Assembly: GCA_964578845.1 (NCBI GenBank)
Contig: CAZOEF010000001.1
Coordinates: 276,820-340,819, forward strand
Direction of reading: 5' to 3'
Source: Candidatus Woesearchaeota archaeon
Lineage (GTDB): Archaea; Nanobdellota; Nanobdellia; Pacearchaeales; GW2011-AR1
DNA length: 64,000 nucleotides
Shown: positions 12,002 through 46,709 of the stretch, in pieces
How positions within the stretch are numbered: position 1 is the first letter of the stretch
Layout of the letters: the number at the start of each line of letters is the position of its first letter
Made by a program: the position numbers and the translations under genes
Notes under the pieces: model-generated
Told to the model about the DNA's origin: nothing
Database searches by the model: none
Seen by the model: only the letters and a program-made list of their open reading frames with translations

Positions 12002-12940
12002 ATGAAACATACTGTTAAAATCACATTAATACTTATATCAATGTTCTTTGTAGCGCAGTTGATAGGAATATTTGTTGCTAATGCTTATTCTCCTGAGGTG
12101 AAGCAGGTAGTCAATGAGACAACAGGAGAAGTGACTAATATCACTCAATATGACCTGCCTTATGGATTAGAACCGCCACAGGACGTGACACCCCAGACTT
12201 CAATATTCTCTATATTAATAGCATTGTTTATTGCTGTTGTGCTGATGCTTACTTTGATGAAATTAAAAGCAGAAACATTCCTTAGGCTATGGTTTTTAGT
12301 TGTAGTCACGCTAGGAATAGCCATAGCTATAAATGCTCTACTTATCGGAATCAAATATTCAGCAATAGTAGCTTTGATAATTGCAGTTCCTTTAGGAATA
12401 ATAAAGATATTCCAGAGAAATATCTATGTGCATAATGCGACTGAGTTATTGATATATCCTGGAATAGCTACAGTATTCATTCCATTATTGAATGTCTGGA
12501 CTGTTGTGATATTATTGTTCCTGATTTCAATTTACGATATGTATGCTGTATGGCACGCAGGATTCATGCAGAAGATGGCTAAATACCAGATTGAAAAAGT
12601 AAGAGTATTTTCAGGATTTTTTGTTCCTTACCTAGGGCCAAAGGAAAAACAAAAAATAAAGAAGATGAAATTAAGTAAATCTAAGAAAGGGAAAGACCAG
12701 AAGGTTGGAGTCAATGTAGCGATATTAGGCGGAGGAGATGTAGTATTCCCTATATTATTGTCAGGAGTTGTACTGAATGCATGGGGAGTAATACCTGCAT
12801 TGATCATAGCTGTCGGAGCAACAGTAGCTTTAGCAGGATTATTCTATATCTCAAAGAAAGGCAAGTTCTATCCTGCAATGCCGTTTATTTCTGCGGGATG
12901 TTTGGTAGCTTTGGGGATCGCTTATTTAGTCCAATTTTAA
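12002..12940 (+). CDS. presenilin/signal-peptide-peptidase family (A22, GxGD) intramembrane aspartyl protease
   Basis: Polytopic membrane protein with YD (SIYDMYAVW), GxGD (LGGGDVVFP) and PAL (VIPALII) motifs in the canonical order. Confidence 0.75.
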   Translation: MKHTVKITLILISMFFVAQLIGIFVANAYSPEVKQVVNETTGEVTNITQYDLPYGLEPPQDVTPQTSIFSILIALFIAVVLMLTLMKLKAETFLRLWFLVVVTLGIAIAINALLIGIKYSAIVALIIAVPLGIIKIFQRNIYVHNATELLIYPGIATVFIPLLNVWTVVILLFLISIYDMYAVWHAGFMQKMAKYQIEKVRVFSGFFVPYLGPKEKQKIKKMKLSKSKKGKDQKVGVNVAILGGGDVVFPILLSGVVLNAWGVIPALIIAVGATVALAGLFYISKKGKFYPAMPFISAGCLVALGIAYLVQF

Positions 12941-13971: not shown

Positions 13972-15279
13972 ATGGTTTCACTTGAAGATTTGATTATAGA
14001 AACAGATCTTTTGGCAAATATTCCTGAAAAGGAGCAAAATACCCTTAGAATAAAATATCCCATAAAGGACAGGATTCTTCTTGATTTTTTAGCAGGAAAG
14101 TCTTTGCAAGATTATAATAGGGCAATTAATGGAAAAGATCACTTAGAGCTATTGAGCCATAATTGCATGGACTCATTTAATGAAGTACAGCTAATGACTC
14201 CTATGAAACAGTTATCAATGCTGGCTTATCAGACCCTGATATGCTCAAAGGAGGTAAGGAGTATGCTTCCTTCAAAAGCCTCGCAAGAAACTAAAAAAAG
14301 AGCATTGCTCCTGGATAGCTTATTAAATGAATTAACAGAAGAGAGAAAGGCAAAAGCATTATGCAATGATGTTAATGAATCAGTAAAAGAAGCTTGCCTA
14401 TTATATATAATCCAAAAAACCTGCTTAAGAATAGGGAATGAAAATTCAGATATAGATAATTTCAACAAAAATCTTGGAAAGCTTGATATTCCCGATGGAA
14501 TTAAAAAATATAGCCAATACCTGCAAGACTCCCCTCCACAAATAGAATTAAGCATGGACCTAGAAGCTTCTCGGCTTTTAGAAATAAGGAAACAACTGCT
14601 TGATTCAAGCAGGGAATTATTGATTGAAAAAGTTAGAAATGAATATGGAGTGTATAGAAAAGAGTGTGAAAATATAGAAAAATTTGCAGAAAGATTACTA
14701 AAACCATCCCCTCAGCGGCAAGATATAAATGAACTAAAAAAAGTGATGGCCAGAGTAAATAGCATCTCAAAGGCTGAGAAAAAAATGAGAAGTGCAATCA
14801 ATTCTATTAGATTAGATGTCCCTGACCCTTGTATCCCTGAATATCTGGAAAGATTAGGTAAGACAATTACAAAGCTCAATGATGAATGCGATGAATATGT
14901 TTCCAAAAGCCCAAAAATACGCAGGATGATAAGAGAATTGCCCCGCATCAAAACAGAGTTCATAGGGTATTTGCAAAAAAATAGATTTTCCCGCTGCAAA
15001 AGAATAATCACAGATATTGAGTCAAGAGAAACCAAAACGAGCGATAATATGTATCTCGCTCCTATTTTGGAAGAAACGAATTACTTGTTAGATGACTTCT
15101 CAAAGGCAGCAATTGAAAATATGTCAAAGAAAGATGAGAAAATTTCACTGGAAATAGAAAGTTTTAGGTTGAAAAGAAATGGTTTTCTTGAAAGATTGAG
15201 CTCTTATATGGGAATTAGAGCGCTTGAGAAGCAAAGAAAAAATCTAATAGAATTAAGCAGAATGGTTACTTCTTTTTGA
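13972..15279 (+). CDS. hypothetical 435-aa helical protein
   Basis: Long ORF rich in K/E/L and helical in character. No TM helix and no recognisable catalytic motif. Its 3' end overlaps the convergent gene by 14 nt. Confidence 0.6.
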   Translation: MVSLEDLIIETDLLANIPEKEQNTLRIKYPIKDRILLDFLAGKSLQDYNRAINGKDHLELLSHNCMDSFNEVQLMTPMKQLSMLAYQTLICSKEVRSMLPSKASQETKKRALLLDSLLNELTEERKAKALCNDVNESVKEACLLYIIQKTCLRIGNENSDIDNFNKNLGKLDIPDGIKKYSQYLQDSPPQIELSMDLEASRLLEIRKQLLDSSRELLIEKVRNEYGVYRKECENIEKFAERLLKPSPQRQDINELKKVMARVNSISKAEKKMRSAINSIRLDVPDPCIPEYLERLGKTITKLNDECDEYVSKSPKIRRMIRELPRIKTEFIGYLQKNRFSRCKRIITDIESRETKTSDNMYLAPILEETNYLLDDFSKAAIENMSKKDEKISLEIESFRLKRNGFLERLSSYMGIRALEKQRKNLIELSRMVTSF

Positions 15280-16768
15280 CTTCTATCTTGAATCCGTCTT
15301 TTGCTCCCTCTAGCCCTACCCAATTAACAGCAGGGCCGCAATCACCTAATGCCCTGCAGACGTCTTTTCTCTCTTTTTCCCAGGTATCATCTAAGCATTC
15401 ACAATTATCCTTGCAAGACTCTCCACCGAATAATCCTTTTTCGAATGTGACTACACAGAGAGCATTTCCCTGGGCGCAGATCTGCTGGGCTTCAGTTCCT
15501 TCCCAGAAGTTTAATCCTGGAGGGTTCTTAGGCAAGCAGGCTCCATTAGCTGTTGAATTCCCTAATGTGACTCCCTCTTTCCAGATGCAGTCCCTTCTAT
15601 CAGTATTCTCGCAATCCTGCTGGTCTGTCTGGGCTACGCAATCCTGCCATCTGTTTACTCTGCAGGCTGCCTGAGAGAAACCATTTATGTCATCCTGAAT
15701 GCACTCTTCTGCACGGAAATCTGAGCAAGCTTCGACAACTTCTTCCCCATTTATGCAGATATGTTTGTAGAACCTGCTTCCAACTGAATTCTCTCCCACT
15801 CCTGTCTCTCCTGCATCATCATATACACACCAGCTCTCGCCGTGCTTGTAGTTATTGCCATTTGAGGTGTCTTCACAATTCAGGTCAGCGCAAATGAAAT
15901 CTCCGTAAGTAGGATTTCCTCCTGCAACTTCCTCGGACCTGCAGAAGCTTCCTTCAAGATAATTACAATTACCGCATGACGCGCTTCCGGCGTTAGCACT
16001 TCCTGGAGAGCAGCTTTCATCCTTAGACTTTACATTTGTCCAATATTCCTGGTCGTTCACTTTGGAAGCATCATAAATATTAGCAGGATTCCCGCATGTA
16101 TCTACGAAATAAACTTCATCTTTTCCGGGCATGCAAATTGTTTGCGTTGATGGGCCGCAGTTAGTGCCGAGCTCTTCTGCTGAACATAATTTATCCTTGA
16201 AGAAAGTTCCTGAACTTATTGTCCCGTTAGCTGTTGAAGATGAACCCTCACATTCTGCCCTCGTTGAGAATTTGCAGGTCCTCTCAAATTCAAATTCATA
16301 GACGCAGGCCCCTTTATCCTGATTCTGAACAGAAGCTATGCAGGACAATTCGTCATTTATGCCAGTATCATAATTTGTTTCAAGGCCTAAGGAAGCTGAT
16401 AATTTCTTACATCTGACTAAAGAGACAAAGGCAGCCTGATCCCCTAACATGCAGCAGCCTAGTTCGCATTGAGGAGGGGATTCTTCGCTCCAGACTCCTC
16501 CGTTCTCATTGCATACCAACTGAGGAGTATTATCTAAACAAGTCCCTTCGGTAGAATCATAACAAGTTCCCACCTTACAGAAACTAGTTGAATCACAACT
16601 TGTCGGCACTTGCCTTGAACCTGGAGCGCATTCATTGGCAGGAACATCCTGACAGTATGCACCAGTATTTGTCTGCTCGCAGCAAACAGTGCTCTGCTGG
16701 GCTGAGACTAGAGATATTGCGAATAAGAAAACTATTGCGGTCAATATTGAAAATATTCTTTTATTCAT
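15266..16768 (-). CDS. secreted Cys-rich protein, paralogue of the N-terminal ectodomain of the 1231-aa protein
   Basis: Signal peptide MNKRIFSILTAIVFLFAISLVSAQQ. Collinear with residues of about 100-560 of ORF 18210-21926 (GTCYDSTEGTCLDNTP/GTCIDPTEGTCLANTP; GKDEVYFVDTCGN/GKDEVYWVDSCGN; HGESWCVYD/QGESWCVYE). Confidence 0.85.
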   Translation of the reverse strand: MNKRIFSILTAIVFLFAISLVSAQQSTVCCEQTNTGAYCQDVPANECAPGSRQVPTSCDSTSFCKVGTCYDSTEGTCLDNTPQLVCNENGGVWSEESPPQCELGCCMLGDQAAFVSLVRCKKLSASLGLETNYDTGINDELSCIASVQNQDKGACVYEFEFERTCKFSTRAECEGSSSTANGTISSGTFFKDKLCSAEELGTNCGPSTQTICMPGKDEVYFVDTCGNPANIYDASKVNDQEYWTNVKSKDESCSPGSANAGSASCGNCNYLEGSFCRSEEVAGGNPTYGDFICADLNCEDTSNGNNYKHGESWCVYDDAGETGVGENSVGSRFYKHICINGEEVVEACSDFRAEECIQDDINGFSQAACRVNRWQDCVAQTDQQDCENTDRRDCIWKEGVTLGNSTANGACLPKNPPGLNFWEGTEAQQICAQGNALCVVTFEKGLFGGESCKDNCECLDDTWEKERKDVCRALGDCGPAVNWVGLEGAKDGFKIEVKKK

Positions 16769-17052
16769 GCTGCCTCACCTCTTAGGTATTTTATCTTCTT
16801 GTCAACCCATCTAGAATGCTCGTTATCTAAAGCAACCTTGAGAACATAAGCCAAGTCTTTAAAATCAGAAGGCATCTCTGCACGGCCAATCTTTTTTTCC
16901 ATAATCCTAACCTGTTTTGAAGCTCTATGATATAATCTTTCATATATCTGATTTTCATTTGGATTAATAGGATTAGAACTATCACAAAGAGTTCCTAATT
17001 CTCTAATATCTCTAGCAATTGCACGATAGGAGATCATGTTTCTTGTACTCAT
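16765..17052 (-). CDS. hypothetical soluble 95-aa helical protein (operon member)
   Basis: 4-nt overlaps on both sides. No TM helix. Shares an ERLYH motif with the upstream 122-aa product. Confidence 0.6.
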   Translation of the reverse strand: MSTRNMISYRAIARDIRELGTLCDSSNPINPNENQIYERLYHRASKQVRIMEKKIGRAEMPSDFKDLAYVLKVALDNEHSRWVDKKIKYLRGEAA

Positions 17053-17417
17053 GCTGCCCTCCTAAACATACCTGCTCTCTGATGATATAACCTCTCAAGT
17101 TCATGAGATTCTTCTCTTAATGTTTTAAGCAATTCCCTTTCATCACCTGTGGAGTCATAATGATCTAAAAGTTTCTGCGAGATATCATAATTAATATATA
17201 GCATATGAAGAGCAGCACCCACATCAGAAATTCGGCTTATACACTCCACTACAGGCCCTACCTCATTAAATGTTTTTTGATCTGCAATTTGGAAGGAATC
17301 ACCTAAGGGAGCTAATGGTTTGCTCAACGGATTGAAGATCACATTAGAAATGAATTCTCTAGCCTCATCAATTTTCTCGCTTATCCTTTCAAAATCTTCT
17401 ATAGTATTTCCTATCAT
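17049..17417 (-). CDS. hypothetical soluble 122-aa helical protein (operon member)
   Basis: 4-nt overlaps on both sides. No TM helix. C-terminal LERLYHQRA motif. Confidence 0.6.
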   Translation of the reverse strand: MIGNTIEDFERISEKIDEAREFISNVIFNPLSKPLAPLGDSFQIADQKTFNEVGPVVECISRISDVGAALHMLYINYDISQKLLDHYDSTGDERELLKTLREESHELERLYHQRAGMFRRAA

Positions 17418-18217
17418 GCTTCCTCCAGGCCGTAACCTTGCGGCCAGACCAAGCTTCGCGATGCGAAAGTAAAACTATCCTGCGTCACTACATTGCTTAG
17501 CTTGTAAATAGTATCTCCATCCCTTTTTATCTTTTCTATTTTCAGGTCTGGATAATATTGCAAGTATAAAGTTGTTTCTGAATCGCCTAAAACAGATTCA
17601 AATTGGATAATGCTTACAGCAGTCATGAGCAAATCATAAAGCTCGCTGTCTATTCCTACAGCAAACTTCTCAAATCTTTGAGTGCTTTCCTTAGTTATTG
17701 CTGTAGGGGAAAGGAATTCAACTGATATTTTTCCAGTGTCGACATCAACATTGATTTCTCCTGGAGTTGATTGTACTGTGAAACCCCTAGATTCATAATC
17801 ATCTATCAAGTTGTTCATGCAATCCCTTGCTTTAGGCTCTACATAAGATTTTATTTCATTCTCTATGTGATTAACTAGTAAAGGCTGCTGGACTTTACAA
17901 GTCTGGTAATTCTGTGAAGTGTAGCAGAGATATTGTATCTTTTCTCCTTCGTATAGGACGAAGTTATTAGGATTTGTATATCCTCCTTGTTTGGCTAATA
18001 CATCAACTACAGTGTTTATTTCAGGCTCTATGCAATCCCTTAAGTAAGAGGCAGGATCTGTCTCCTGGCCGATATTGACTGATACAGGGCTGTTAGGCAA
18101 AAGGAAAAATATCACAACTACTGCAACTATTACAATAGCAATAATAATGAAAATAGCTACCTGACCTCTTTTATCCATTGCCAGAAAAGCCTGATTTTCT
18201 TTATAATCCTTACGCAT
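17414..18217 (-). CDS. class-III-signal (prepilin-like) protein, paralogue of ORF 21902-22675
   Basis: MDKRGQVAIFIIIAIVIVAVVVIFFLL matches the [KR]-G|Q + hydrophobic helix pattern of archaeal type IV pilins. GGAGG lies 4 nt before the ATG at 18217 (alternative start 18178). The globular part aligns with the 257-aa paralogue (QGGYTNPNNFVLY / QGGLVNPKDFVFY). Confidence 0.75.
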   Translation of the reverse strand: MRKDYKENQAFLAMDKRGQVAIFIIIAIVIVAVVVIFFLLPNSPVSVNIGQETDPASYLRDCIEPEINTVVDVLAKQGGYTNPNNFVLYEGEKIQYLCYTSQNYQTCKVQQPLLVNHIENEIKSYVEPKARDCMNNLIDDYESRGFTVQSTPGEINVDVDTGKISVEFLSPTAITKESTQRFEKFAVGIDSELYDLLMTAVSIIQFESVLGDSETTLYLQYYPDLKIEKIKRDGDTIYKLSNVVTQDSFTFASRSLVWPQGYGLEEA

Positions 18218-21200
18218 TATAACCTCCTGTTATTGCCAAGCATTCTCCTGGATTGCCAAAGCCATCTTTGCACTTGACATAATAATTAAGCCCTGTTTCA
18301 AATCCTGAAGTGTGGACTAGACCTTCTCCTGACATTAATGAACCATTCTCAAAATTGAATGAACAGCTATCATGAGAGTAGGCACACATTGCAGGACTAT
18401 CAGTCACTATGGTTAAGCCGTTTTGATTATATGCCCTTGTTATTAATGGGCCTTTATTATCAACCTCAATTGTGAACTGCGAATTTCCTGTGGCAATATT
18501 GCCTGCTGTATCTTCACAGCGGATCGCTATATTGTAATCCCTTGCTTGCCAAAGGCTTACATCCCTTTGTTTGTGGGTATTAGTTCCTGTTTCTAAAAAT
18601 TGGAAATAATTTCCACTTCCATCATGATCGTAAGAACATTCCCTAAGCGTATCTTCTGCCCCTCCAGAGGTTTGTACTTCTAACTGTATCTTAACAGGAA
18701 GGCCTGCAGAATAAATCGTCTCATTGTTTGGAGAGATAGATATTATCTCTAAAGGATTCTCAGTCCTTTTTAGAGTGTATTTAACACTTTCAGAATTTTT
18801 GTTCCGTTCCTTATTATCAGGATTGCTGACTTCTAGCCATGGCTGGTCCTTGCACCTGAAATTATATTCGCTTGTTTCATTATTTATTGGCAGAGTAGTT
18901 TCACAAAGCCATCCGAACGGTGTTGATTCCTCAAAAATTTGGCTGCAGTTCACTTCGTTAGCCATGACATCAAAGTCTGTATCTTGCTTATCCCAGCGGC
19001 ATTCAGAAGGCTCATTTGTATAGAAACTTATATCTGCTTCTGTTGCATTAAGCGCTACATGGCCATTTGACTGCGGATCAAATCTGGAGATTATCGGAGG
19101 TGTCAAATCATCCTCAGGAGAAATACAGAAGCTGACAGTATAATCTCTCTTGTTTGTGTTCCCAGTTTTATCACTGCAGCTTATATACATATTAAAGTCA
19201 GCCCTTTCATCAGGCTCTACTATGTCATCAGCACCTAATAATCCCAAAGAAGGAAGTCTATCCTGTATTAAGTGATTAGTTTTGTAAGAGTTTGAGCCTC
19301 CGATGAATCCTTCCATCTCTTCAAATGGCACCCTTAATTCAGAAGCTTTGCACTGGGCAGCTTCATCGACCTCTATTCCGAAAGATACTAATGAATAGGC
19401 AGGCAAACATCCATCGCTTGTTGAGCCTTCTACCCTAAAGCCTGAATCAGATACTTGTGAATAACTTAGACCATCGGATAACGCATCTTCGTCGGGAGAA
19501 ATTGCTGGAGCAGTCACATCATCCGGAGCTACATTAACACAAGCTTGATCAGAAGTTCCTTCATTGATAAATTCACATGTTTGGCCCAGGCTTTCACACT
19601 TGTATTTATTGCAAGGTAAACCATTATCTCCACATTGTCCACACATCTCCCCTCCCTTAGGGGGCTGCCACGGCAGGCATTGGAAAGAGATAAGCTTTGT
19701 CTTTTTCTTTCCCCATCCTAAAAGCCATCCTATACCTATGAATGCGAGAGTCGCTGCTGCTAAAATCCATCCTACAATTGGTATCCATACAGAAACTTGC
19801 ACTGCAACTAAAGAAAACCCTATAAGTGCTCCTGCTGCGGCCCCTGCAATTATTAATGCATACTGCCATTCTTCTGATAATCCTCCCCCTATTCCTGAGA
19901 ATTTTATGAGCATTGAGGTTATTGCTGCTCCGATCAATGCCCCTGCAACTACCCCTCCTGCTGCTCCTAAACCGGGCTGGACTGGACCAACAAAATCTGC
20001 TGGTAGGAATGCTGTACTTCCTAACAAAGTACCTTGTAGTACGCCTGCAGACCCTGCATAGGCCAAAGCTACTCCTGCGAAACCAGTTACTCCTGAAATA
20101 ACATCAAGAGCTAATTCCTCAGGATTATAGTTAGGATCAGTGATATCAAAACCGAACAATGCTGCAATTTCATCTTCGCTCAATGGAGAGGCGACTTTTC
20201 CAGGAATAGGGTCTTTTAATTCTTGCAGTCCTGAAAGATATTTTTCCCCTAGTTCAGGAGCATTTTTAATTGAATATCCATCTGTAGTATATTCTCCTAA
20301 AATGTTGACTTGTACTCCGCAGTCCCCCAAACTCATGCACAAATTGTTTAAGGTCTCTGTAAAATCAGCATCATCGCATCTTGCGTTTATTTTTGTTGAA
20401 TCTCCGAATGCTTCTTTGATAGTGATCTTTTTGCAGTTCAAACTAGCTAAAGCGCACTGAGTTTCTTTAGCAGAACCTCCTATCTCTGTGTTTAGATTAA
20501 AACCTGGCGGATATTTAGGAACACATAAATCAAATTCAAAAGTATCCTTGCTGCTTTGGGCCATATCTACATGCATGATCTTGCAATCTGTATTCTCTTC
20601 GCATTTTGCTAAATCATCTGGATCTTCATTTGCCTTAAGGCACAATGCCCATTGATTTGCCCTGCAGTCTGCTGTTGAAAAATCATTAGTGTTGGACTCT
20701 GTGCAAATTTCCCTCCTGCCCGGTGCACAGGATTCCAAAATGACTTCTCCATCCCTGCAAGTTGAAATATAGTGGCTGCTTCCAGGGACATCAACAGACC
20801 GTTGATTATTTCCTGTTCCTTCAACTCCGATAGCACTCTCATAAACGCACCAGCTTTCCCCTTGGCTTCTTTCGTTTCCTTGCTCGTCTATGCAAGCAAG
20901 ATCCCTGCAAACAAAATCTCCATCAACTGGGGCTTCATCCTGCTCGCGGGGAGTGCCGCAAACACTTCCTGCAGGATAGAAACAATTTCCGCAAGTCGAT
21001 TGCTTTCCTAAAGGATCGTTACCTTGCGTGAGAGTGCAGCTTTCTGACTTAGGCAAGACTAAACCATTGTTCCAGCTTCTTGCTTTATTAGAATCATAAA
21101 TGTTCTCTCTATTTCCGCATGAATCAACCCAATAAACTTCATCTTTTCCTTCAAAACATTGTGTAGAGACCTGCTTTTCACAAATTGTGTTTAATCCGAT

Positions 21201-21905
21201 ATTTGAGCATAATAATCCTTCATTGAATTCACCGCCTATTGCAGAGCATTCTCCTTTTGTAGTGAATTTGCAATCATTTTTACTTTCTCCCGGCACTTCG
21301 CCCAATACGCAAGCCCCTTCTGCCTGCTGATTGCCTAATGCCAAGCATTCTAACTCATTAGAAACTTGCCTGAACTCATTTTCTATTCCAGTTCGTTGGC
21401 TTAAAATGGAACATGTGCTTTCAGTTATATATTGAGCATTATCCCCAATAAGACAGCATCCTGGACGGCATTCTGAAAGCTCTGATACTGCTCTTTCGTT
21501 CCACTCTCCTCCAGATTCATCGCAAAGAACTTTAGGAGTGTTAGCTAAACAAGTCCCTTCTGTTGGATCAATGCAAGTCCCTAATGTGCATTCAGCAAAA
21601 TCATCTCTTTTCCCAGGAAAACAATTATCTGAACAATAATCGTTGCATTCACTTGATAGATATTCCTGACATTTTGTTCCATTCTTATTCTCTAAACATG
21701 TCCATACACTGAGGTCATCAACTTGTGCTGAAACTAACCCTGAAGAAAGCCAATCCAGAAGATGAGCTCTTGCGAATCTGATGAATTTACTCTCGGTGTC
21801 ATCAGCAGCTGCAACATATGAATTTCCCTGTGCTATAATGAATGCTATTGATATGCTCATTGTCACTAATAGGAACATCTCAAAAAAAGCTATTTTCTTC
21901 CTCAT
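18210..21905 (-). CDS. giant (1231 aa) Cys-rich surface protein with a central glycine-zipper multi-TM region and C-terminal beta-sandwich-like repeats
   Basis: The start is set at the ATG of MRKKIAFFEMFLLVTMSISIAFIIAQG, which forms an ATGA overlap with the upstream stop; the ORF-track start is 21926. It has a Cys-rich ectodomain, a Gly/Ala-rich hydrophobic block (about nt 19712-20105) and four repeats with a C-[RKAS]-[WY]-[SD] ... C-x-D-x2-GN pattern. Confidence 0.85.
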   Translation of the reverse strand: MRKKIAFFEMFLLVTMSISIAFIIAQGNSYVAAADDTESKFIRFARAHLLDWLSSGLVSAQVDDLSVWTCLENKNGTKCQEYLSSECNDYCSDNCFPGKRDDFAECTLGTCIDPTEGTCLANTPKVLCDESGGEWNERAVSELSECRPGCCLIGDNAQYITESTCSILSQRTGIENEFRQVSNELECLALGNQQAEGACVLGEVPGESKNDCKFTTKGECSAIGGEFNEGLLCSNIGLNTICEKQVSTQCFEGKDEVYWVDSCGNRENIYDSNKARSWNNGLVLPKSESCTLTQGNDPLGKQSTCGNCFYPAGSVCGTPREQDEAPVDGDFVCRDLACIDEQGNERSQGESWCVYESAIGVEGTGNNQRSVDVPGSSHYISTCRDGEVILESCAPGRREICTESNTNDFSTADCRANQWALCLKANEDPDDLAKCEENTDCKIMHVDMAQSSKDTFEFDLCVPKYPPGFNLNTEIGGSAKETQCALASLNCKKITIKEAFGDSTKINARCDDADFTETLNNLCMSLGDCGVQVNILGEYTTDGYSIKNAPELGEKYLSGLQELKDPIPGKVASPLSEDEIAALFGFDITDPNYNPEELALDVISGVTGFAGVALAYAGSAGVLQGTLLGSTAFLPADFVGPVQPGLGAAGGVVAGALIGAAITSMLIKFSGIGGGLSEEWQYALIIAGAAAGALIGFSLVAVQVSVWIPIVGWILAAATLAFIGIGWLLGWGKKKTKLISFQCLPWQPPKGGEMCGQCGDNGLPCNKYKCESLGQTCEFINEGTSDQACVNVAPDDVTAPAISPDEDALSDGLSYSQVSDSGFRVEGSTSDGCLPAYSLVSFGIEVDEAAQCKASELRVPFEEMEGFIGGSNSYKTNHLIQDRLPSLGLLGADDIVEPDERADFNMYISCSDKTGNTNKRDYTVSFCISPEDDLTPPIISRFDPQSNGHVALNATEADISFYTNEPSECRWDKQDTDFDVMANEVNCSQIFEESTPFGWLCETTLPINNETSEYNFRCKDQPWLEVSNPDNKERNKNSESVKYTLKRTENPLEIISISPNNETIYSAGLPVKIQLEVQTSGGAEDTLRECSYDHDGSGNYFQFLETGTNTHKQRDVSLWQARDYNIAIRCEDTAGNIATGNSQFTIEVDNKGPLITRAYNQNGLTIVTDSPAMCAYSHDSCSFNFENGSLMSGEGLVHTSGFETGLNYYVKCKDGFGNPGECLAITGGYNA

Positions 21906-22675
21906 AATCCTGCAGGTATCACACACCCCCTTATTGCAATATTCATCTCTGTCTGAGTAGGCTTATCTTTAATAGTATATATTTTTGTTGAATCTGAAAG
22001 AGTCCACTTCCTGATATCGAACTGTGGATAAAGTATACTATAACCATTGCTGCTGAAATAACAGAACTGGGCTTCCTGCCTTGTGATCTCATTTGCTACA
22101 TAGCCTAGATCGTAAAGCGGGCTATCCAGATTAACACTGAAAGAGTCAAAGCTCTGTGTCTGGCCATTCTTAGTTATAGCCATATCCCTTAGAAGATTTA
22201 TTTCAACTATTCCTGGCTTAAGGACAATATCTGTAGTGAAATCTCCTCCAGAGACTTCGTAATTCTTAGACTCTAAGTCATCTTCCAATGCGATAAAGCA
22301 TTGCTCTATGTCATCCCGCATATTAGCGCTCAATTCTTCCTGCAAATGGGTTATATATCTAGGGTATTGCGTCACACATGGCTCGTAATTATTTATGTTC
22401 TTGCAAACATATGTAACTTTGATATCATTATAGAAGACAAAATCCTTTGGATTTACTAAGCCTCCTTGAGGGATCATCAAATCAATTTTTTCCCTCGCAC
22501 TTTCCCTTAAGCAGGTCCTGAGAAATGCATCCGGACTTTCATCATTTCCAGTTATAGATAGCTCACCATCTTTAGCAAACATATAGATAAGAATTATAGT
22601 TCCGACTAAGGCTATGGCTATTATAATAAATATCACCATCTGGCCTTTTTTATTCATTGGGCACCTCTTTCTCAT
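21902..22675 (-). CDS. class-III-signal (prepilin-like) protein
   Basis: MNKKGQMVIFIIIAIALVGTIILIY. GAGGTG lies 4 nt before the internal ATG at 22657, which is the likely true start. Paralogue of ORF 17414-18217. Confidence 0.75.
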   Translation of the reverse strand: MRKRCPMNKKGQMVIFIIIAIALVGTIILIYMFAKDGELSITGNDESPDAFLRTCLRESAREKIDLMIPQGGLVNPKDFVFYNDIKVTYVCKNINNYEPCVTQYPRYITHLQEELSANMRDDIEQCFIALEDDLESKNYEVSGGDFTTDIVLKPGIVEINLLRDMAITKNGQTQSFDSFSVNLDSPLYDLGYVANEITRQEAQFCYFSSNGYSILYPQFDIRKWTLSDSTKIYTIKDKPTQTEMNIAIRGCVIPAGL

Positions 22676-22799
22676 ATAATAGTTTAATAGCCTCTTCGAT
22701 TGCGTGGGATTTGTTCCTATATCTGCCGATCTTTAAGATTCTATCTAGAAGCTTCGCTGTTTTCTCCTCTACTGTTGCCGATAACCTCTCTTTTCCCAT
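22650..22799 (-). CDS. ribbon-helix-helix (CopG/Arc-like) small DNA-binding protein, 49 aa
   Basis: Below the ORF-track cutoff. My translation is MGKERLSATVEEKTAKLLDRILKIGRYRNKSHAIEEAIKLLYEKEVPNE, which shows a beta-strand plus two-helix RHH pattern. Its 3' end overlaps the next gene. Confidence 0.6.
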   Translation of the reverse strand: MGKERLSATVEEKTAKLLDRILKIGRYRNKSHAIEEAIKLLYEKEVPNE

Positions 22800-22807
22800 G
22801 AAGTACC

Positions 22808-22843
22808 TTAGTAATATTTAGTAATACTTTTTAATATAAAGTA
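22808..22843 (-). promoter_or_regulatory. putative promoter (TATA TTTATATT, 22833-22840) plus two perfect 9-bp direct repeats (TTAGTAATA at 22808-22816 and 22818-22826) as a candidate RHH operator
   Basis: The repeats are spaced exactly 10 bp apart. They lie between the TATA-like box and the RHH start codon at 22799. Confidence 0.4.
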
Positions 22844-22887
22844 TACTTTATAATATTTAATATGATATATAAATATATTGATTTAGA

Positions 22888-22940: not shown

Positions 22941-22993
22941 ATTGTGGAACATTGTGGGACATTGCGGGACATTGCGGGACATTGCGGGACATT
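22941..22993. repeat. 10-bp tandem repeat, 5.3 copies (ATTGYGGRAC; three perfect ATTGCGGGAC)
   Basis: Read directly: attgtggaac attgtgggac attgcgggac attgcgggac attgcgggac att. It abuts the stop codon of the gene at 22992. Confidence 0.9.
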
Positions 22994-24395
22994 AAGCAAT
23001 AGAATATCTTGTACCTTTTCCTTGTCCTGTCTGTTTCAAAAATCCTTGTTGAACAAGCCCCTTTAAATCCCTTGTTGCTGTCTTTTCTGGAACACCTAGC
23101 AGTTTGCAATATTCTGCCCTATTTACACTCCCATTTGGTTTTAGATGTTTTAAAACCTTGACTTGCCTATCGTTTAGTAAACTGGAATCTCTGACCCTTT
23201 TGTAGGGAGAATCTACTATTTTAGAAACATCTTCTGGACCATATAGAATTATCTTGAAAGTGTTTTGTGTTGTGTGTATTGCGGGATCTCTGAGACCGTG
23301 TTTTTTCATTGCATTCTTTATCCTTTTTATACCATGTCCTTCCTGCTCCATGAGACTCATTTTTTCAAAGAAAAGGGCCAATACAGGATTCCTTCTTAAT
23401 GACAATCCATTGTCTTCAATTTCATCCCAAGAATAACCTGCAAAGGGAAAACCTCCAGGATTAACAATCTCTATTCTATCCTTAAATATTTTAACAAAAA
23501 TTTCTGTGCCTTCAATAAAATAGTCTCTATGAACAATTGCGTTTATAATGGCCTCCCGTATTGCCTCTGGAGGATATTCTGAAACATCTATCCTTTCAGT
23601 CCCTCTTACCAAGGAATAATTTCTAACATTTCTTAATATCTCAATATGAGTCTTTCTGAATAAGCTCTCCAAGTCTCCCGTGACCTCGCTTTTTATAAAT
23701 TCATTTGAAACATCACTAGTGGGAAATATGGAAATACTAATTTTGTTCTGAGGAATGAATTGAGAAGGATTTTTTCCAAACAACAATATTGCCGCATTCC
23801 TTACCTTTCCTGATCCATTAACAGATAATTCATGATTCGTCAAGAACTGCTTAACATCTAAAGTATCTTTACTCATATAGATTCCCTTATGCTTTTTTAA
23901 AAAATTAATAACAAGATCGTGATTAATATCATTGATTAATGCTGGACGATCAAAGCTCTTAGCAGGCATTTGATCAAAATGAATTTTTTTAGCTCTTTTC
24001 TCTCTTTCAATTATTTCATCTGGAGTTAGGGGGTGATTAACGCCTTCTCTTCTTTCATAAGAGACATTCTTATATGAGTAAATCGAACCGTTGCCTTGGG
24101 GAATCTTAACACAAATTATAAACTTCTCATTATCATGTTTAATCTTATTTATATCTATATTGACTGGGGGAGAGCAAACTCTTGAAACTTGTGTTATTCT
24201 ATCCTTTAATTTTTGATTATAAAATATTCCTTCAGGATCACCATTATCCTTTACTCCTAAGAATATAGTTCCCCCCTTCTTTGTGGAGAAAGCAGCCATT
24301 GTTCGGCCAAATTCTTCCTCTTTAAAAGAAGACTTGCATTCTACAGATTCGGATTCAAAATCCTTTAAATGCTCAAGAAGTTCGTGATAGTTCAT
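22992..24395 (-). CDS. COG2865-type protein: Schlafen/AlbA_2 DNA-binding domain + ATPase-like domain + C-terminal wHTH
   Basis: The N-terminal ESESVECKSS...GGTIFLGV pattern is typical of the AlbA_2 domain. The C-terminal wHTH is NRAEYCKLLGVPEKTATRDLKGLVQQGFL. About 467 aa. Confidence 0.7.
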   Translation of the reverse strand: MNYHELLEHLKDFESESVECKSSFKEEEFGRTMAAFSTKKGGTIFLGVKDNGDPEGIFYNQKLKDRITQVSRVCSPPVNIDINKIKHDNEKFIICVKIPQGNGSIYSYKNVSYERREGVNHPLTPDEIIEREKRAKKIHFDQMPAKSFDRPALINDINHDLVINFLKKHKGIYMSKDTLDVKQFLTNHELSVNGSGKVRNAAILLFGKNPSQFIPQNKISISIFPTSDVSNEFIKSEVTGDLESLFRKTHIEILRNVRNYSLVRGTERIDVSEYPPEAIREAIINAIVHRDYFIEGTEIFVKIFKDRIEIVNPGGFPFAGYSWDEIEDNGLSLRRNPVLALFFEKMSLMEQEGHGIKRIKNAMKKHGLRDPAIHTTQNTFKIILYGPEDVSKIVDSPYKRVRDSSLLNDRQVKVLKHLKPNGSVNRAEYCKLLGVPEKTATRDLKGLVQQGFLKQTGQGKGTRYSIA

Positions 24396-44366: not shown

Positions 44367-46709
44367 ATGAGATTTAATTTTAGAAAGATTGCATCTGCTT
44401 TAGCATCAACTGCAATGGTTGGCGCTACTATAGGTCTTGCTGCTGCAGCTAGTTTCCCAGCACCATTCGTAGATAACGGAAGTGCTGATGTTGCTATCGT
44501 TTACGGTAGTAACCTGGATTTATCTGCTGTAGGAGAAATATCAAGCTCCTTAAGCTCTGCTTTGGCTAGCCAAGGCGGAAGCTCAACCACTGTAACTGGT
44601 GACTTTGTTCCTGTTGAAAAATCTAATGATAAATTCACATTAGGTGATAATGCGGGCCAATTTAATGCCAATTATGATGGCGATGATCTTGAGATCCTAG
44701 CAGACGGAGTCTATGAGAACGATGATAATGATGATTTCGATTACACCCAGGAAGTAACTCTTGGTTCATCACTTGTCTTGGATCATATCCAGGATAATGA
44801 CTTCAACAATGAAGAACCTTTCATAGGATTTGCTGTTGAAGACGGAGATGAGATCATGAACTATACTGTTGAGTTTTCACCTGACGCTGAAGGTGGAGAT
44901 GACTGGGAACTTTTCGAGTCAACATCCCTAGAGATTATGGGCAAGGAGTATTACATACTCTCTGCAACTAATGCTAGTGGAGGTACATTGGAACTTTTAG
45001 ATTCTGCTAACACTGTAGTCCTTAATGAAGGTGAGACTGTAACTGTTCAGGCTGGAAGTAACAGCTATGACGTTTCTATCAGCTTCATCGACGCAGAAGT
45101 CAAATTAGTAGTAAATGGAGAAGTAACTCCTGCTCTTGAAGAAGACGATACTTACAAACTTGACAGTGGGGATTACATTGGAATCAAGGAAATCTTGTCC
45201 CAAGATTATCAGGGAGGTATAAAGCAAGTAGAATTCAGTATTGGTTCAGGTAAAATCGAACTTACTGATGGCCAAGAAGTAGAAGTAAATGGTGAGAAGA
45301 TCAGTGATGATACTGATCATGTTCTTACTGCTTACTTTGGTACGTCTGGAAGTAATCTACAGGACTTAACTATCCAATGGACAGCTGATGAAGATATGTG
45401 GCTAGGATTTGATACTGATACAACAGAATTAGTCATGCCATTATTTGAATCAGTTAAGCTAAGCCTTGGAGAATTCGCTCCTGATGCAGCTGAAGAAGTA
45501 ACTAATGTTGCTCCTGATGGGGATGATAAATTCAGTTTAGATGTACCTGTTAGCGACGGAGATGTTAATTTTAACTTCTTATTTGCCAATAGTTCAGGAA
45601 CTGGATTTGAAGGCATAGGCGCAGATACTGATGAATTGTTATTGACAGGCGACGGCACTGCCGACCCTACTTTAACTTGGAATGAGAATTCATCATATTT
45701 TGTAGCAACATGGATATCTGGAGACGATCACGAATCCTATGTCCTAGAAGTTACAGATATTGCTGATGAGGATGATAACAATGAGACTACTATAAGAAGC
45801 ATTGCTTCTGGTGGTGAAGAGATTACAATTGAAAGCGGAGAGACTGAGGTTTTTGGAGACCATATTTCATTAACAGTGACAGCTGATAGCGATGCTCAGA
45901 CTGCAACTATTGTATTAGGCGATAGTCAAAGCGACACTTATGCAGATAAAATAGTGACTGATGAAGGTCTACAGATCCAATTGCCTTACGATAGCCTTAC
46001 TTCTACTGGAAGTGGAGCTATGAACTTCACTGCAGGAGATGTAGCTGCTCCATTTGTGATGAATTTCACAGAGGAAAATGAAGATGGAGACGTGGCTAGG
46101 GGCTCTTCATTCACTGCAAACCTTGGATTGCCAAGTCAAGAGACAAGTGTTCAATCTGTTTCACCTGATACCTTTGAAACATCAGATAATTCTGATGATT
46201 TTGAAGGATATGTTGATTCTGAACTTGCAACTAAAGTCTTGTTAAAGACTGGCGGAGACCAGGATGAGTTAGAAATAACTTATCACGGTGACGAAGCTTA
46301 CGCTGAAGTATTCCTTGCGGAATCCGGCGCTGCTACAGACAGCTCATCAAACCTAGGTAACGTTAATGTTATGGCTGATGAACTTGCTGATTCAGGAATG
46401 CAATCTAAGAATCTGATCATCGTTGGTGGAAGTTGCGTAAACTCTGCTGCAGCCTCAGTGTTAGGACTAACAAGTCCTTCATGTGGTTCTGCATGGGAGA
46501 GCGCTACTGGCGCTGGTGAAGGTGAATGGATTATCCAATCCTTTGCTAACCCATGGTCAAGCTCTAAGGTAGCTACACTTGTTGCTGGTTACTCCCAGAG
46601 TGATACTGTTAATGCAGCTACTGCATTGACAACTCAGGAGATCGACACAACAGCAGGCATGAAGTATACAGGTACAACTGGTACTAGTGCTACACCTGTA
46701 GTCAACTAA
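44367..46709 (+). CDS. S-layer protein (Methanococcales-type S_layer_N/S_layer_C-like termini), acidic, 780 aa
   Basis: Strong RBS aaaGGAGGt. Signal peptide ending GLAAAASF. N-terminal VAIVYGSNLDLSAVGEISSSL and C-terminal NLIIVGGSCVNSAAASVL resemble euryarchaeal S-layer termini. Confidence 0.7.
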   Translation: MRFNFRKIASALASTAMVGATIGLAAAASFPAPFVDNGSADVAIVYGSNLDLSAVGEISSSLSSALASQGGSSTTVTGDFVPVEKSNDKFTLGDNAGQFNANYDGDDLEILADGVYENDDNDDFDYTQEVTLGSSLVLDHIQDNDFNNEEPFIGFAVEDGDEIMNYTVEFSPDAEGGDDWELFESTSLEIMGKEYYILSATNASGGTLELLDSANTVVLNEGETVTVQAGSNSYDVSISFIDAEVKLVVNGEVTPALEEDDTYKLDSGDYIGIKEILSQDYQGGIKQVEFSIGSGKIELTDGQEVEVNGEKISDDTDHVLTAYFGTSGSNLQDLTIQWTADEDMWLGFDTDTTELVMPLFESVKLSLGEFAPDAAEEVTNVAPDGDDKFSLDVPVSDGDVNFNFLFANSSGTGFEGIGADTDELLLTGDGTADPTLTWNENSSYFVATWISGDDHESYVLEVTDIADEDDNNETTIRSIASGGEEITIESGETEVFGDHISLTVTADSDAQTATIVLGDSQSDTYADKIVTDEGLQIQLPYDSLTSTGSGAMNFTAGDVAAPFVMNFTEENEDGDVARGSSFTANLGLPSQETSVQSVSPDTFETSDNSDDFEGYVDSELATKVLLKTGGDQDELEITYHGDEAYAEVFLAESGAATDSSSNLGNVNVMADELADSGMQSKNLIIVGGSCVNSAAASVLGLTSPSCGSAWESATGAGEGEWIIQSFANPWSSSKVATLVAGYSQSDTVNAATALTTQEIDTTAGMKYTGTTGTSATPVVN

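What the first reader, a model, noticed from the sequence alone, without database searches (positions are those of the whole stretch)
18210..21905. 1231-aa protein: disulfide-rich ectodomain, glycine-zipper four-helix membrane core, second Cys module and four beta-sandwich-like repeats
The protein reads as a series of regions:
- A signal peptide.
- About 560 aa with dozens of Cys.
- A Gly/Ala-rich hydrophobic block (about nt 19712-20105; e.g. GAAGGVVAGALIGAAI, IIAGAAAGALIGFSL, IVGWILAAATLAFIGIGWLLGW), which I read as about four TM helices full of GxxxG/GxxxA zippers.
- A basic stop-transfer sequence, KKKTK.
- A CxxC-rich module (CGQCGDNGLPCNKYKCESLGQTC).
- Four repeats sharing E-x-x-C-[RKAS]-[WY]-[SD] and Y-x-[IVF]-x-C-x-D-x2-GN.

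An even number of TM helices would put both Cys-rich halves outside the cell. Glycine-zipper helices are typical of oligomeric channels and pore-formers. This makes the protein a candidate intercellular pore or anchor.
Basis: inference. Interest (0 to 1): 0.65.

Follow-up and report, generated by a model that had tools for sequence, protein, structure and literature searches.

The report
Undescribed DPANN archaeal surface-protein operon
The 1231-residue protein is real and is the large subunit of a conserved, so far unannotated five-gene cell-surface system found in hundreds of Woesearchaeota/Pacearchaeota-type (DPANN) genomes; it looks like a membrane-anchored surface scaffold, not a demonstrated pore.

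Summary
The ORF (minus strand, 18210-21905) and all listed regions are present. The family is large: 2,642 clusters at 50% identity and at least 581 loci in GTDB species-representative genomes. All named hits are Nano-, Woese- or Pacearchaeota. There is no Pfam, NCBIfam or PDB sequence match. AlphaFold models the Cys-rich N-domain confidently (pLDDT 92.8), yet Foldseek finds no significant PDB match. The four C-terminal domains are homologous Ig-like (Big_13/HYR-type) sandwiches.

The gene sits in a fixed operon: RHH regulator, pilin-like A, Big, pilin-like B, then a secreted copy of the N-domain. Often a membrane-anchored copy of the C-half follows. This is a tandem duplication of [pilin-like + Big] in which the second Big is usually split.

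Both halves are most likely outside the cell. Several natural variants lack any hydrophobic block, Cys 833 and 927 in the C-half are gained and lost together, and the composition is secreted-like. The "four-helix core" is not supported: three helices are conserved, only the last is strongly hydrophobic, and the first segment is weak and absent from the paralogue.

Because the block is dispensable, I read it as an anchor, not a pore. Function remains inferred.

The parts
22650..22799 (-). 49-aa ribbon-helix-helix-like ORF that opens the operon and overlaps the start of pilin-like A
   Evidence: Translation. Homologous small ORFs (RVSATID...YRNKSH.IE.AI) lie directly upstream of A, on the same strand, in at least 24 of 76 loci.
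21902..22675 (-). Pilin-like protein A: [KR]-G-Q followed by about 20 hydrophobic residues, then a globular part of about 210 aa with 6 Cys
   Evidence: It is 31% identical to protein B (E 2e-43). It lies upstream of Big in 76 of 80 loci; the other four lack upstream flank. No Pfam, NCBIfam or PDB match.
18210..21905 (-). Big: the 1231-aa protein of the finding
21816..21905 (-). aa 1-30: basic N-terminus plus a hydrophobic signal peptide or anchor with a conserved FE[IM]xLL...AFxY motif
   Evidence: The same motif occurs in the C-only paralogues and in unsplit second copies.
20271..21725 (-). aa 61-545: disulfide-rich N-ectodomain with 41 Cys, including three weakly related modules of about 40 aa at aa 102-236
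   Evidence: AlphaFold pLDDT 92.8 and pTM 0.71. No PDB fold match at E<=0.001; the best is 0.66. No Pfam match. Variable Cys come and go in pairs: 87/95, 69/100, 110/141, 504/508. Module similarity is E 6e-5 to 1e-3.
19977..20270 (-). aa 546-643: poorly conserved linker, weakly hydrophobic seg 1 (aa 598-626) and a variable Gly/Ala/Ser insert
   Evidence: pLDDT below 50. Median insertion energy +4.2, never below 0. Mean pairwise identity 0.26 and 36% gaps.
19707..19976 (-). aa 644-733: conserved three-helix Gly-zipper hydrophobic block (seg 2, seg 3, seg 4)
   Evidence: AlphaFold helices at aa 650-670, 678-700 and 707-728. Median insertion energies +2.2, +2.3 and -2.9. Aligns to helices a, b, c of the C-only paralogue. 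Absent in 6-7 homologues.
19491..19706 (-). aa 734-805: juxtamembrane strand plus the 7-Cys module (C743, 755, 758, 765, 770, 777, 789). Together with parts of the N-domain, this is the most conserved region.
   Evidence: All seven Cys are invariant. Mean pairwise identity 0.50. pLDDT 91-95.
18213..19490 (-). aa 806-1231: four homologous Ig-like beta-sandwich repeats (D1-D4), each with a conserved Cys pair
   Evidence: HHalign between repeats, E 2.5e-5 to 4.6e-13. Foldseek matches tandem Ig/FN3/cadherin arrays, E down to 2e-13. Weak Big_13 and DUF4625 matches. Precomputed PF19077 or PF15418 in five homologues.
17414..18217 (-). Pilin-like protein B, the paralogue of A, with 4 Cys
16765..17417 (-). 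Two small ORFs (122 aa and 95 aa) wedged between B and N-only, joined by 4-bp overlaps. They were not seen at this position in the other loci inspected and are probably not core parts.
   Evidence: Neighbouring genes in other loci.
15266..16768 (-). N-only: a secreted 500-aa paralogue of the N-ectodomain, with an ordinary signal peptide ending in LVSAQ, 43 Cys and no TM segment
   Evidence: 37% identity to Big aa 57-547, E 7e-77. Present after B in nearly all loci with enough flank.

Best explanation
Big is the large subunit of an operon-encoded, disulfide-stabilised cell-surface complex. The complex is specific to Woesearchaeota/Pacearchaeota-type DPANN archaea.

Shown:
- The gene is real and widely conserved.
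- It sits in a fixed, translationally coupled operon: RHH regulator, pilin-like A, Big, pilin-like B, N-only, and in many genomes C-only.
- The operon is a tandem duplication of a two-gene unit [pilin-like + Big]. The second Big is usually split into a secreted N-domain copy and a membrane-anchored C-half copy.

Inferred:
- After export through the signal peptide, both the Cys-rich N-domain and the C-terminal Cys module with its four Ig-like repeats lie outside the cell.
- The mid-chain Gly-zipper block is a hairpin-type membrane anchor with an even number of spans, most likely two of the three conserved helices. It is not a channel.
- The two pilin-like proteins stay in the membrane through their N-terminal helices after class-III signal processing, and pack against this anchor.
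- The N-type and C-type modules each carry an odd number of conserved Cys. I therefore propose one N-to-C disulfide, formed in cis within Big and in trans between N-only and C-only. That bond would tether the secreted copy to the cell.

The assembled two-half complex would act as a rigid surface scaffold or contact structure. Its role would be attachment to a partner cell or to the cell's own envelope.
For: Family size and range:
- 629 full-length homologues at 37-55% identity.
- 2,642 clusters at 50% identity with E<=1e-3.
- At least 581 loci in GTDB species-representative genomes. The best 80 are all Nano-, Woese- or Pacearchaeota or unnamed archaea.
- No relative in viral contigs.

Operon:
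- The order A-Big-B-N(-C) holds in 64 of 80 loci. Most of the rest are cut by contig ends.
- Two loci carry an unsplit second Big.
- Gene starts and stops overlap.
- The operon lies next to PCNA and primase in about half of the loci.

Both halves on the same side:
- Six or seven homologues have no hydrophobic connector at all. One is in the canonical slot between A and B.
- Cys 833 and 927 co-vary.
- The polar/charged residue ratio is 2.3 for the C-half. It is 2.3-3.4 for two signal-peptide proteins of this window and 0.86-1.74 for eight cytoplasmic proteins. A composition classifier agrees.
- The sandwich repeats are weakly homologous to those of a sequon-dense surface glycoprotein with a C-terminal anchor.

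Anchor, not four-helix core.

Cys parity: the N-half is odd (41, 43 or 45). The C-half has 21 Cys in 148 of 185 homologues. N-only is odd in 84% of cases, C-only is odd in 86%, and the Big total is even in 71%.

Pilin-like signal: [KR]-[GAS]-Q followed by about 20 hydrophobic residues in essentially all A and B proteins, with Q invariant.

Conservation is uniform along the chain (0.34-0.50), with no hypervariable tip.

A separate S_layer_C-type protein exists in the window, so Big is not the S-layer protein itself.
Against: - No functional data exist. Every step from "surface complex" to "scaffold or contact" is inference.
- Hydrophobicity and AlphaFold favour one strong plus two marginal helices, an odd number. 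Basic residues follow the last helix in most members. Taken alone, this would put the C-half in the cytoplasm.
- I could not inspect model coordinates. No disulfide pairing, N-C contact or helix packing was checked.
- The Cys-parity argument has another reading: N-to-N' and C-to-C' intermolecular bonds.
- Apparent sequon coupling at N877 and N1187 is no stronger than control couplings for other residue types. It does not count as evidence.
- One TM-less example, P0119, sits on a low-coverage contig with a duplicated segment and may be an assembly artefact.
- A and B match no pilin family model.
- No prepilin peptidase, assembly ATPase or platform gene was found in the neighbourhoods.
Confidence: 0.5

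Rival explanations
1. Pore or fusogen. The Gly-zipper helices oligomerise into a channel, or they act like fusion peptides that insert into a host membrane. Either way they would create the cytoplasmic bridge through which the DPANN cell feeds.
For: - Seg 2 and seg 3 keep a GxxxGxxxG consensus.
- GxxxG spacing is enriched.
- Marginal hydrophobicity, median about +2.2 to +2.3, resembles that of viral fusion peptides. That comparison rests on my own knowledge.
- The ectodomains are conserved along their whole length and are not hypervariable. This would suit a target common to many hosts, such as a lipid bilayer.
- The organism is a DPANN archaeon, a group generally inferred to depend on hosts (Castelle et al. 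2021, PMC8204110).
Against: - The hydrophobic block is missing from at least six homologues that keep both ectodomains, one of them in the same operon slot. It is therefore not essential to the family's core function.
- There are no heptad repeats and no class I, II or III fusogen fold. Foldseek against PDB and BFVD returns only generic Ig arrays.
- No oligomer model could be run.
Confidence: 0.1
2. Odd-pass receptor or scaffold. Three helices, or one, span the membrane. The C-terminal Cys module and the Ig-like repeats are then cytoplasmic, with Zn-bound or reduced Cys. They would couple an extracellular sensor domain to an intracellular structure.
For: - AlphaFold gives three helices of 21-23 residues and a disordered seg 1.
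- Only seg 4 is strongly hydrophobic.
- A basic cluster follows the last helix: mean K+R is 2.7 against D+E 1.6.
- The conserved core shared with the C-only paralogue is three helices.
Against: - TM-less variants fuse the secreted N-domain directly to the C-half.
- Cys 833 and 927 are gained and lost as a pair.
- The composition is that of secreted proteins.
- The module has a single CxxC, so it does not look like a zinc ribbon.
- The juxtamembrane stretch is acidic or mixed in several paralogues.
- The basic motif persists without any TM segment.
Confidence: 0.12
3. Type IV filament accessory complex. A and B are minor pilins that prime or cap a pilus and present Big as its adhesin. The analogy is the bacterial minor-pilin/PilY1 operon.
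For: - A and B carry a [KR]-[GAS]-Q class-III-like signal with an invariant Gln at +1.
- A large non-pilin protein flanked by two pilin-like genes recalls the fimU-pilVWXY1 operon (my own knowledge) and the PilY-like adhesin described for archaeal TFF subsystem 4A (bioRxiv 10.64898/2026.04.22.720090).
Against: - Big has its own membrane anchor and no pilin-like N-terminus.
- No ATPase, platform or peptidase gene lies in the operon or its conserved neighbourhood.
- The globular parts of A and B, about 210 aa, match no pilin model.
- The TFF survey preprint does not list such a cassette in the passages read.
Confidence: 0.1
4. Envelope structural element. The complex links the cytoplasmic membrane to the S-layer or forms part of the wall. 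It would be a housekeeping role with no part in host contact.
For: - The operon is single-copy, appears vertically inherited, and lies beside PCNA and primase.
- Conservation is moderate and uniform along the whole chain.
- A separate S_layer_C-type protein in the window could be its partner.
Against: - The operon's own RHH regulator suggests conditional expression.
- There is no similarity to known S-layer anchors.
- This rival overlaps with the best explanation and differs only in the binding partner.
Confidence: 0.18

Closest known systems
Archaeal class III signal peptide (type IV pilin-like) proteins. These include non-filament uses such as the Sulfolobus surface-anchored binding proteins ("bindosome") and the Q(+1) pilins of Methanococcus processed by EppA.
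   Same: A and B have a short basic N-terminus, then G/A/S at -1, Gln at +1 and about 20 hydrophobic residues. This is conserved in essentially all orthologues.
   Different: There is no match to Pilin_N or any pilin family; only 1 of 34 members hits, at E 0.043. The globular domains are about 210 aa with 4 or 6 Cys and have no relatives. No assembly genes lie nearby. Big itself is not a pilin.
Glycine-zipper membrane helices (the GxxxGxxxG packing motif of Kim et al. 2005) and the Pfam Gly-zipper or GlsB/YeaQ-type small membrane proteins
   Same: Seg 2 and seg 3 keep the motif at family-consensus level. The block has three short Gly/Ala-rich helices.
   Different: There is no sequence match to any Gly-zipper family. 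Here the block lies in the middle of a 1231-aa protein between two ectodomains. It is dispensable in some homologues.
Ig-like repeat surface proteins and adhesins of prokaryotes (Big_13, DUF4625 and HYR-type domains)
   Same: There are four tandem beta-sandwiches with a C-x-D-x2-G-N type motif. Fold matches to tandem Ig/FN3/cadherin arrays reach E 2e-13. Some homologues carry precomputed PF19077 or PF15418.
   Different: The query is below Pfam's cut-off (17.1 bits against 27). Each repeat carries a conserved Cys pair. The repeats follow a 7-Cys module and a mid-chain anchor, not a C-terminal anchor.
Fusexin/HAP2 and viral fusion glycoproteins
   Same: A disulfide-rich ectodomain and Gly/Ala-rich, marginally hydrophobic segments, in a lineage thought to bridge to host cells.
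   Different: No fold match to any fusogen in PDB or BFVD. There are no heptad repeats and no C-terminal TM segment. The hydrophobic block is optional.
Module 98 of Castelle et al. 2021 (PMC8204110): 51 protein families widespread in Pacearchaeota and Woesearchaeota, mostly of unknown function
   Same: The same taxonomic restriction and the same lack of annotation.
   Different: Membership could not be checked, because the family table is not in the held supplement. That paper does not describe this operon.

Membership tests
Type IV pilin-like / class III signal peptide proteins (flanking proteins A and B) | Basic N-terminus, small residue (G/A/S) at -1, then a hydrophobic helix of about 20 residues | tested here: met
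   [KR]-[GAS]-Q plus a hydrophobic stretch in essentially all A and B orthologues. Q is invariant and G is at least 90% conserved.
Type IV pilin-like / class III signal peptide proteins (flanking proteins A and B) | Match to a curated pilin or class III signal model | tested here: not met
   Pfam gives 0 families for the window proteins. Only 1 of 34 aligned members hits Pilin_N, at E 0.043. NCBIfam gives nothing relevant.
Type IV pilin-like / class III signal peptide proteins (flanking proteins A and B) | Prepilin peptidase and assembly ATPase/platform present | tested here: inconclusive
   None was found among the ORFs of the 64-kb window that I scanned against Pfam (about 36) or in the conserved neighbourhood of 80 loci. 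The rest of the genome could not be searched.
Glycine-zipper oligomeric channel | (G/A/S)xxxGxxxG motif in membrane helices | tested here: met
   The family consensus shows GGAxAGAAIGAA in seg 2 and GAxxGAxxG in seg 3. GxxxG count is 9 against 4.7 +/- 1.8 in shuffles.
Glycine-zipper oligomeric channel | Homo-oligomeric pore formed by these helices | not testable with these tools
   No multimer prediction was available and model coordinates could not be read. Indirect evidence against: the block is absent in 6-7 of 171 homologues.
   Seg 1 has median insertion energy +4.2, never below 0. Its pLDDT is below 50. It has no counterpart in the C-only paralogue.
Big_13 / HYR-type Ig-like domains | Sequence match above the family threshold | tested here: inconclusive
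   The query scores E 0.0078 and 17.1 bits against a cut-off of 27. Five homologues carry precomputed PF19077 or PF15418. The beta-sandwich fold is confirmed.
Archaeal S-layer proteins | Match to S-layer domain families | tested here: not met
   No hit for Big. A different ORF, 44367-46709, carries S_layer_C.
Fusexin/HAP2 or viral class I-III fusogens | Characteristic ectodomain fold, or heptad repeats plus a C-terminal TM segment | tested here: not met
   Foldseek of the full model and of the N-domain returns no fusogen. The secondary structure after the block is all beta-strand, and there is no C-terminal TM segment.

The most novel reading that the evidence does not exclude
The operon encodes the conserved machine by which Woesearchaeota/Pacearchaeota cells dock onto partner cells and open a membrane connection to them. 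In this reading the two paralogous half-complexes grip the partner surface. The Gly/Ala-rich, marginally hydrophobic helices switch from self-anchoring to insertion into the partner membrane, producing a fusion pore or bridge.
Probability: 0.1. Interest if true: 0.9.

Novelty: new variant of a known kind. Interest (0 to 1): 0.6.

Why it matters
Woesearchaeota and Pacearchaeota are among the most widespread uncultured archaea. How they build their envelope or hold on to partner cells is unknown.

This work defines a lineage-wide, tightly organised gene set of five or six genes. All of its proteins are currently labelled "hypothetical". It contains a confidently modelled 490-residue disulfide-rich domain with no solved structural relative. 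Its duplication-and-fission history predicts which pieces bind each other.

That yields concrete hypotheses to test:
- the topology of Big;
- the N-to-C disulfide;
- class-III processing of A and B;
- localisation at contact sites.

It also provides specific targets for cryo-ET, proteomics and heterologous expression. If the complex proves to be the host-contact apparatus, it would open the mechanism of DPANN symbiosis to experiment. If it is an envelope scaffold, it would still define a new archaeal cell-surface architecture.

Tried and rejected
1. Sequence families. Pfam, NCBIfam and PDB sequence searches gave nothing above threshold. I ran them on the whole protein, on its three parts, on the family profile and on the A/B profile.
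2. Fold search with the full model. It returned only generic Ig/FN3/cadherin arrays. Spending the second fold search on the full model against BFVD added little.
3. Viral origin. No relative was found in IMG/VR contigs.
4. N-glycosylation sequons as evidence that the C-half is outside. N877 and N1187 looked coupled to S/T at +2. Controls with other residues gave equally strong couplings, so I dropped this.
5. Homology of the 7-Cys module to the end of the N-domain (shared C-x-S-L-G motif). HHalign aligned only 6 columns at E 0.09. Rejected.
6. Cys parity as proof of an N-C disulfide. The secreted N-only copy is also odd, so other pairings remain possible. I keep it as a hypothesis only.
7. The positive-inside rule as an arbiter of topology. 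It is weakened because the basic motif survives in variants without a TM segment and is acidic in some paralogues.
8. P0119 as a clean TM-less example. Its contig carries a duplicated connector at 3x coverage, so I do not rely on it.
9. Literature. Five searches and six papers were read in part. None describes the family or the operon.
10. Big as the S-layer protein. Rejected, because a separate S_layer_C protein is present in the window.

Full report
**1. The observation**

The window is archaeal. It encodes PCNA, FttA, proteasome subunits, TrmB, Rad50, FtsZ and ribosomal protein L10, at about 38% G+C.

The ORF lies on the minus strand, from the ATG at 21905 to the stop at 18210-18212, and gives 1231 aa.
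- an N-terminal hydrophobic helix;
- 41 Cys between aa 70 and 529;
- a Gly/Ala-rich hydrophobic block at aa 598-733 that contains the three quoted strings;
- KKKTK;
- the CGQCGDNGLPCNKYKCESLGQTC module;
- a C-terminal region with 14 further Cys.

The four C-terminal repeats are truly homologous to one another (HHalign E 2.5e-5 to 4.6e-13). AlphaFold models them as beta-sandwiches.

**2. Size and range of the family**

- The word-indexed search found 629 full-length homologues at 37-55% identity. Nearly all are called "hypothetical" and come from Nanoarchaeota or Pacearchaeota.
- The exhaustive search found 2,642 cluster representatives at 50% identity with E<=1e-3, of which 1,503 have E<=1e-30.
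- A scan of GTDB species-representative genomes found at least 581 loci. The best 80 are all Nano-, Woese- or Pacearchaeota or unnamed archaea.
- Viral contigs hold none.
- Nearly all Cys are invariant.
- Nothing matches in Pfam, NCBIfam or PDB sequences, either with single sequences or with the family profile.

**3. Structure**

The mature protein (aa 32-1231) was modelled with 56 sequences at mean pLDDT 82.7 and pTM 0.64. The N-domain alone (aa 56-570) reached pLDDT 92.8 and pTM 0.71.

Foldseek with the N-domain against the PDB gave no match at E<=0.001. The best hits were fibronectin F1-type modules at E 0.66-1.1 and probability at most 0.16. The fold therefore has no solved relative.

The N-domain contains three weakly related modules of about 40 aa, each a hairpin followed by a helix.

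The full model matched only generic tandem Ig/FN3/cadherin arrays through the C-half. Disulfide pairs and domain contacts were therefore not checked.

**4. Operon**

Big is flanked by two paralogous proteins of about 255-270 aa (31% identity, E 2e-43). Their N-termini read [KR]-[GAS]-Q followed by about 20 hydrophobic residues. That is the pattern of archaeal class III (prepilin-type) signals with Gln at +1.

Further downstream lies a 500-aa secreted paralogue of the N-domain, N-only (37% identity, E 7e-77). A 49-aa RHH-like ORF opens the operon here and in at least 24 of 76 other loci. Gene starts and stops overlap by 4-8 bp.

Across 80 loci the order A-Big-B-N is essentially invariant. In 34 or more loci a third paralogue, C-only, follows. 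It consists of a signal helix with the same FEIxLL...AF motif, a Cys-free G/S/T/P linker, three hydrophobic helices, the 7-Cys module and four sandwiches, with 21 Cys in total.

Two loci (L084 and L063) have an unsplit second Big in place of N-only and C-only. Its N-part scores like N-only, not like Big.

The simplest history is a tandem duplication of [pilin-like + Big], followed by fission of the second Big. This predicts that N-only and C-only work together in the way the two halves of Big do.

The operon lies beside PCNA and a primase-like gene in about half of the loci. No other neighbour is conserved.

**5. Topology**

Arguments for an odd number of spans, which would put the C-half inside:
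- Only seg 4 is strongly hydrophobic (median -2.9 kcal/mol). Seg 2 and seg 3 are marginal (+2.2 and +2.3). Seg 1 is poor (+4.2, never below 0).
- AlphaFold gives three helices of 21-23 residues and a disordered seg 1.
- The C-only block aligns to segs 2-4 only.
- Basic residues follow seg 4.

Arguments against:
- Six or seven of 171 homologues have a connector of 106-152 aa with no hydrophobic segment at all between the N-domain and the Cys module. They keep the signal peptide, 41-47 N-side Cys and 21 C-side Cys.
- One of these, P0255, sits between A and B next to PCNA. Another, P0119, is on a doubtful contig.
- Homologous domains do not change compartment, so the C-half belongs outside with the secreted N-domain.
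- The variable Cys 833 and 927 in repeat D1 appear and disappear together (r about 1.0). The same is true of four pairs in the N-domain. This is the behaviour expected of disulfide partners.
- The polar/charged ratio of the C-half is 2.3. Two signal-peptide proteins of the same window give 2.3-3.4, and eight cytoplasmic proteins give 0.86-1.74. A Cys-blind composition classifier agrees. That classifier was trained on few families.
- The repeats are weakly homologous (E 3.5e-9) to those of a sequon-dense glycoprotein with a C-terminal anchor.
- The G-x-G-K/basic motif persists in variants without a TM segment. It is acidic or mixed in some C-only proteins. It is therefore part of the C-half fold, not a stop-transfer signal.

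I conclude, at about 85% confidence, that both halves are outside. The block then makes an even number of passes. This is most simply two of the three conserved helices, with the third helix and seg 1 lying at the membrane interface. Which two helices span is open.

**6. Cys parity**

- The N-half is odd (41, 43 or 45).
- The C-half has 21 Cys in 148 of 185 homologues.
- N-only is odd in 84% of cases.
- C-only is odd in 86%.
- The Big total is even in 71%.

One N-to-C disulfide, in cis in Big and in trans for the split pair, would explain all four observations. It would also tether the secreted copy to the cell. N-to-N' plus C-to-C' bonds would fit equally well. This remains a hypothesis.

**7. 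Function**

Conservation is moderate and even along the chain (mean pairwise identity 0.34-0.50). Only the linker and seg 1 region is poorly conserved (0.26), and there is no hypervariable tip. This pattern is unlike fast-evolving host-specific adhesins. It suggests conserved partners, such as the other subunits, the cell's own envelope, or a feature common to many hosts.

A separate S_layer_C-type protein is encoded at 44367-46709, so Big is not the S-layer protein.

The hydrophobic block is optional in the family, so a channel or fusion role for it is unlikely to be the core function.

My best reading is a hetero-oligomeric, disulfide-stabilised surface scaffold or contact complex anchored by the Gly-zipper hairpin and by the pilin-like helices. 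The rivals are a pore or fusogen, an odd-pass receptor, a pilus-tip complex and a purely structural envelope element. They are listed with their tests.

**8. Comparison with what is known**

The pieces resemble known things: class III signals, glycine zippers and Big_13/HYR-type repeats. No family membership is met for Big, A, B or N-only.

I found no description of the family or the operon in the literature available to me. Castelle et al. 2021 reported a module of 51 Pace/Woese-specific families, mostly of unknown function (PMC8204110). This operon probably belongs to it, but I could not check.

I rate the finding a new variant of a known kind, namely multi-subunit archaeal surface proteins. 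It has a novel ectodomain fold and a novel operon logic. Interest is 0.6.

Noticed in passing
window 22941-22993: A 10-bp tandem repeat, ATTGCGGGAC, in 5.3 copies at 95% match. It overlaps the stop codon (22992-22994) of the AlbA_2/Schlafen-type gene and lies about 140 bp upstream of the RHH ORF that opens the operon. It may be an array of regulator-binding sites. An AT-rich 10/19-bp repeat lies at 22808-22859.
   Followed up: partly
window 16765-17417 (-): Two small ORFs (122 aa and 95 aa) are inserted between pilin-like B and N-only, joined by 4-bp overlaps. They have no family match and were not seen at this position in the other loci inspected. They may be a small mobile two-gene module.
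   Followed up: partly
window 22992-24395 (-): A 467-aa protein with Schlafen AlbA_2, HATPase_c_4 and HTH domains sits between PCNA and the operon. In several other genomes PCNA directly adjoins the operon, so this looks like an insertion.
   Followed up: no
window 44367-46709 (+) and 49238-50860 (-): Two signal-peptide surface proteins. One is 780 aa with a marginal S_layer_C match (E 1.8e-5). The other is 540 aa with CARDB, NEW3 and DUF4352 domains. I used them as secreted-protein composition references.
   Followed up: partly
L006:12625-14778, L061:12835-14964 and 33 other loci: The C-only paralogue: a signal helix with the same FEIxLL...AF motif as Big, a Cys-free low-complexity linker, three hydrophobic helices, the 7-Cys module and four sandwiches. 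It has 21 Cys in 17 of 21 complete copies. It was not found in the 64-kb window.
   Followed up: yes
L084:10670-14659; L063:6538-9873: Unsplit second Big copies (N'-TM-C') occupy the position that N-only and C-only hold elsewhere. This documents the gene fission. L062 and L075 carry extra tandem copies of A-Big or of Big.
   Followed up: yes
L023:471-2636: A protein very dense in sequons, with HYR-like repeats (SCWY...YANDxxGN), a Gly-rich linker and a C-terminal TM segment followed by a basic tail. It is weakly homologous to Big's sandwich repeats (E 3.5e-9) and is probably a surface glycoprotein of the same lineage.
   Followed up: partly
L085:2746-9725: Two adjacent Big-like genes share an identical connector without a TM segment, on a contig with 3x coverage. 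This is probably an assembly duplication, so P0119 should not be trusted as a TM-less variant.
   Followed up: partly
window 12002-12940 (+): A presenilin-type signal-peptide peptidase (PF06550, E 5e-12) lies about 2 kb from the 3' end of the operon (the N-only gene). It is not conserved next to the operon in other genomes.
   Followed up: no
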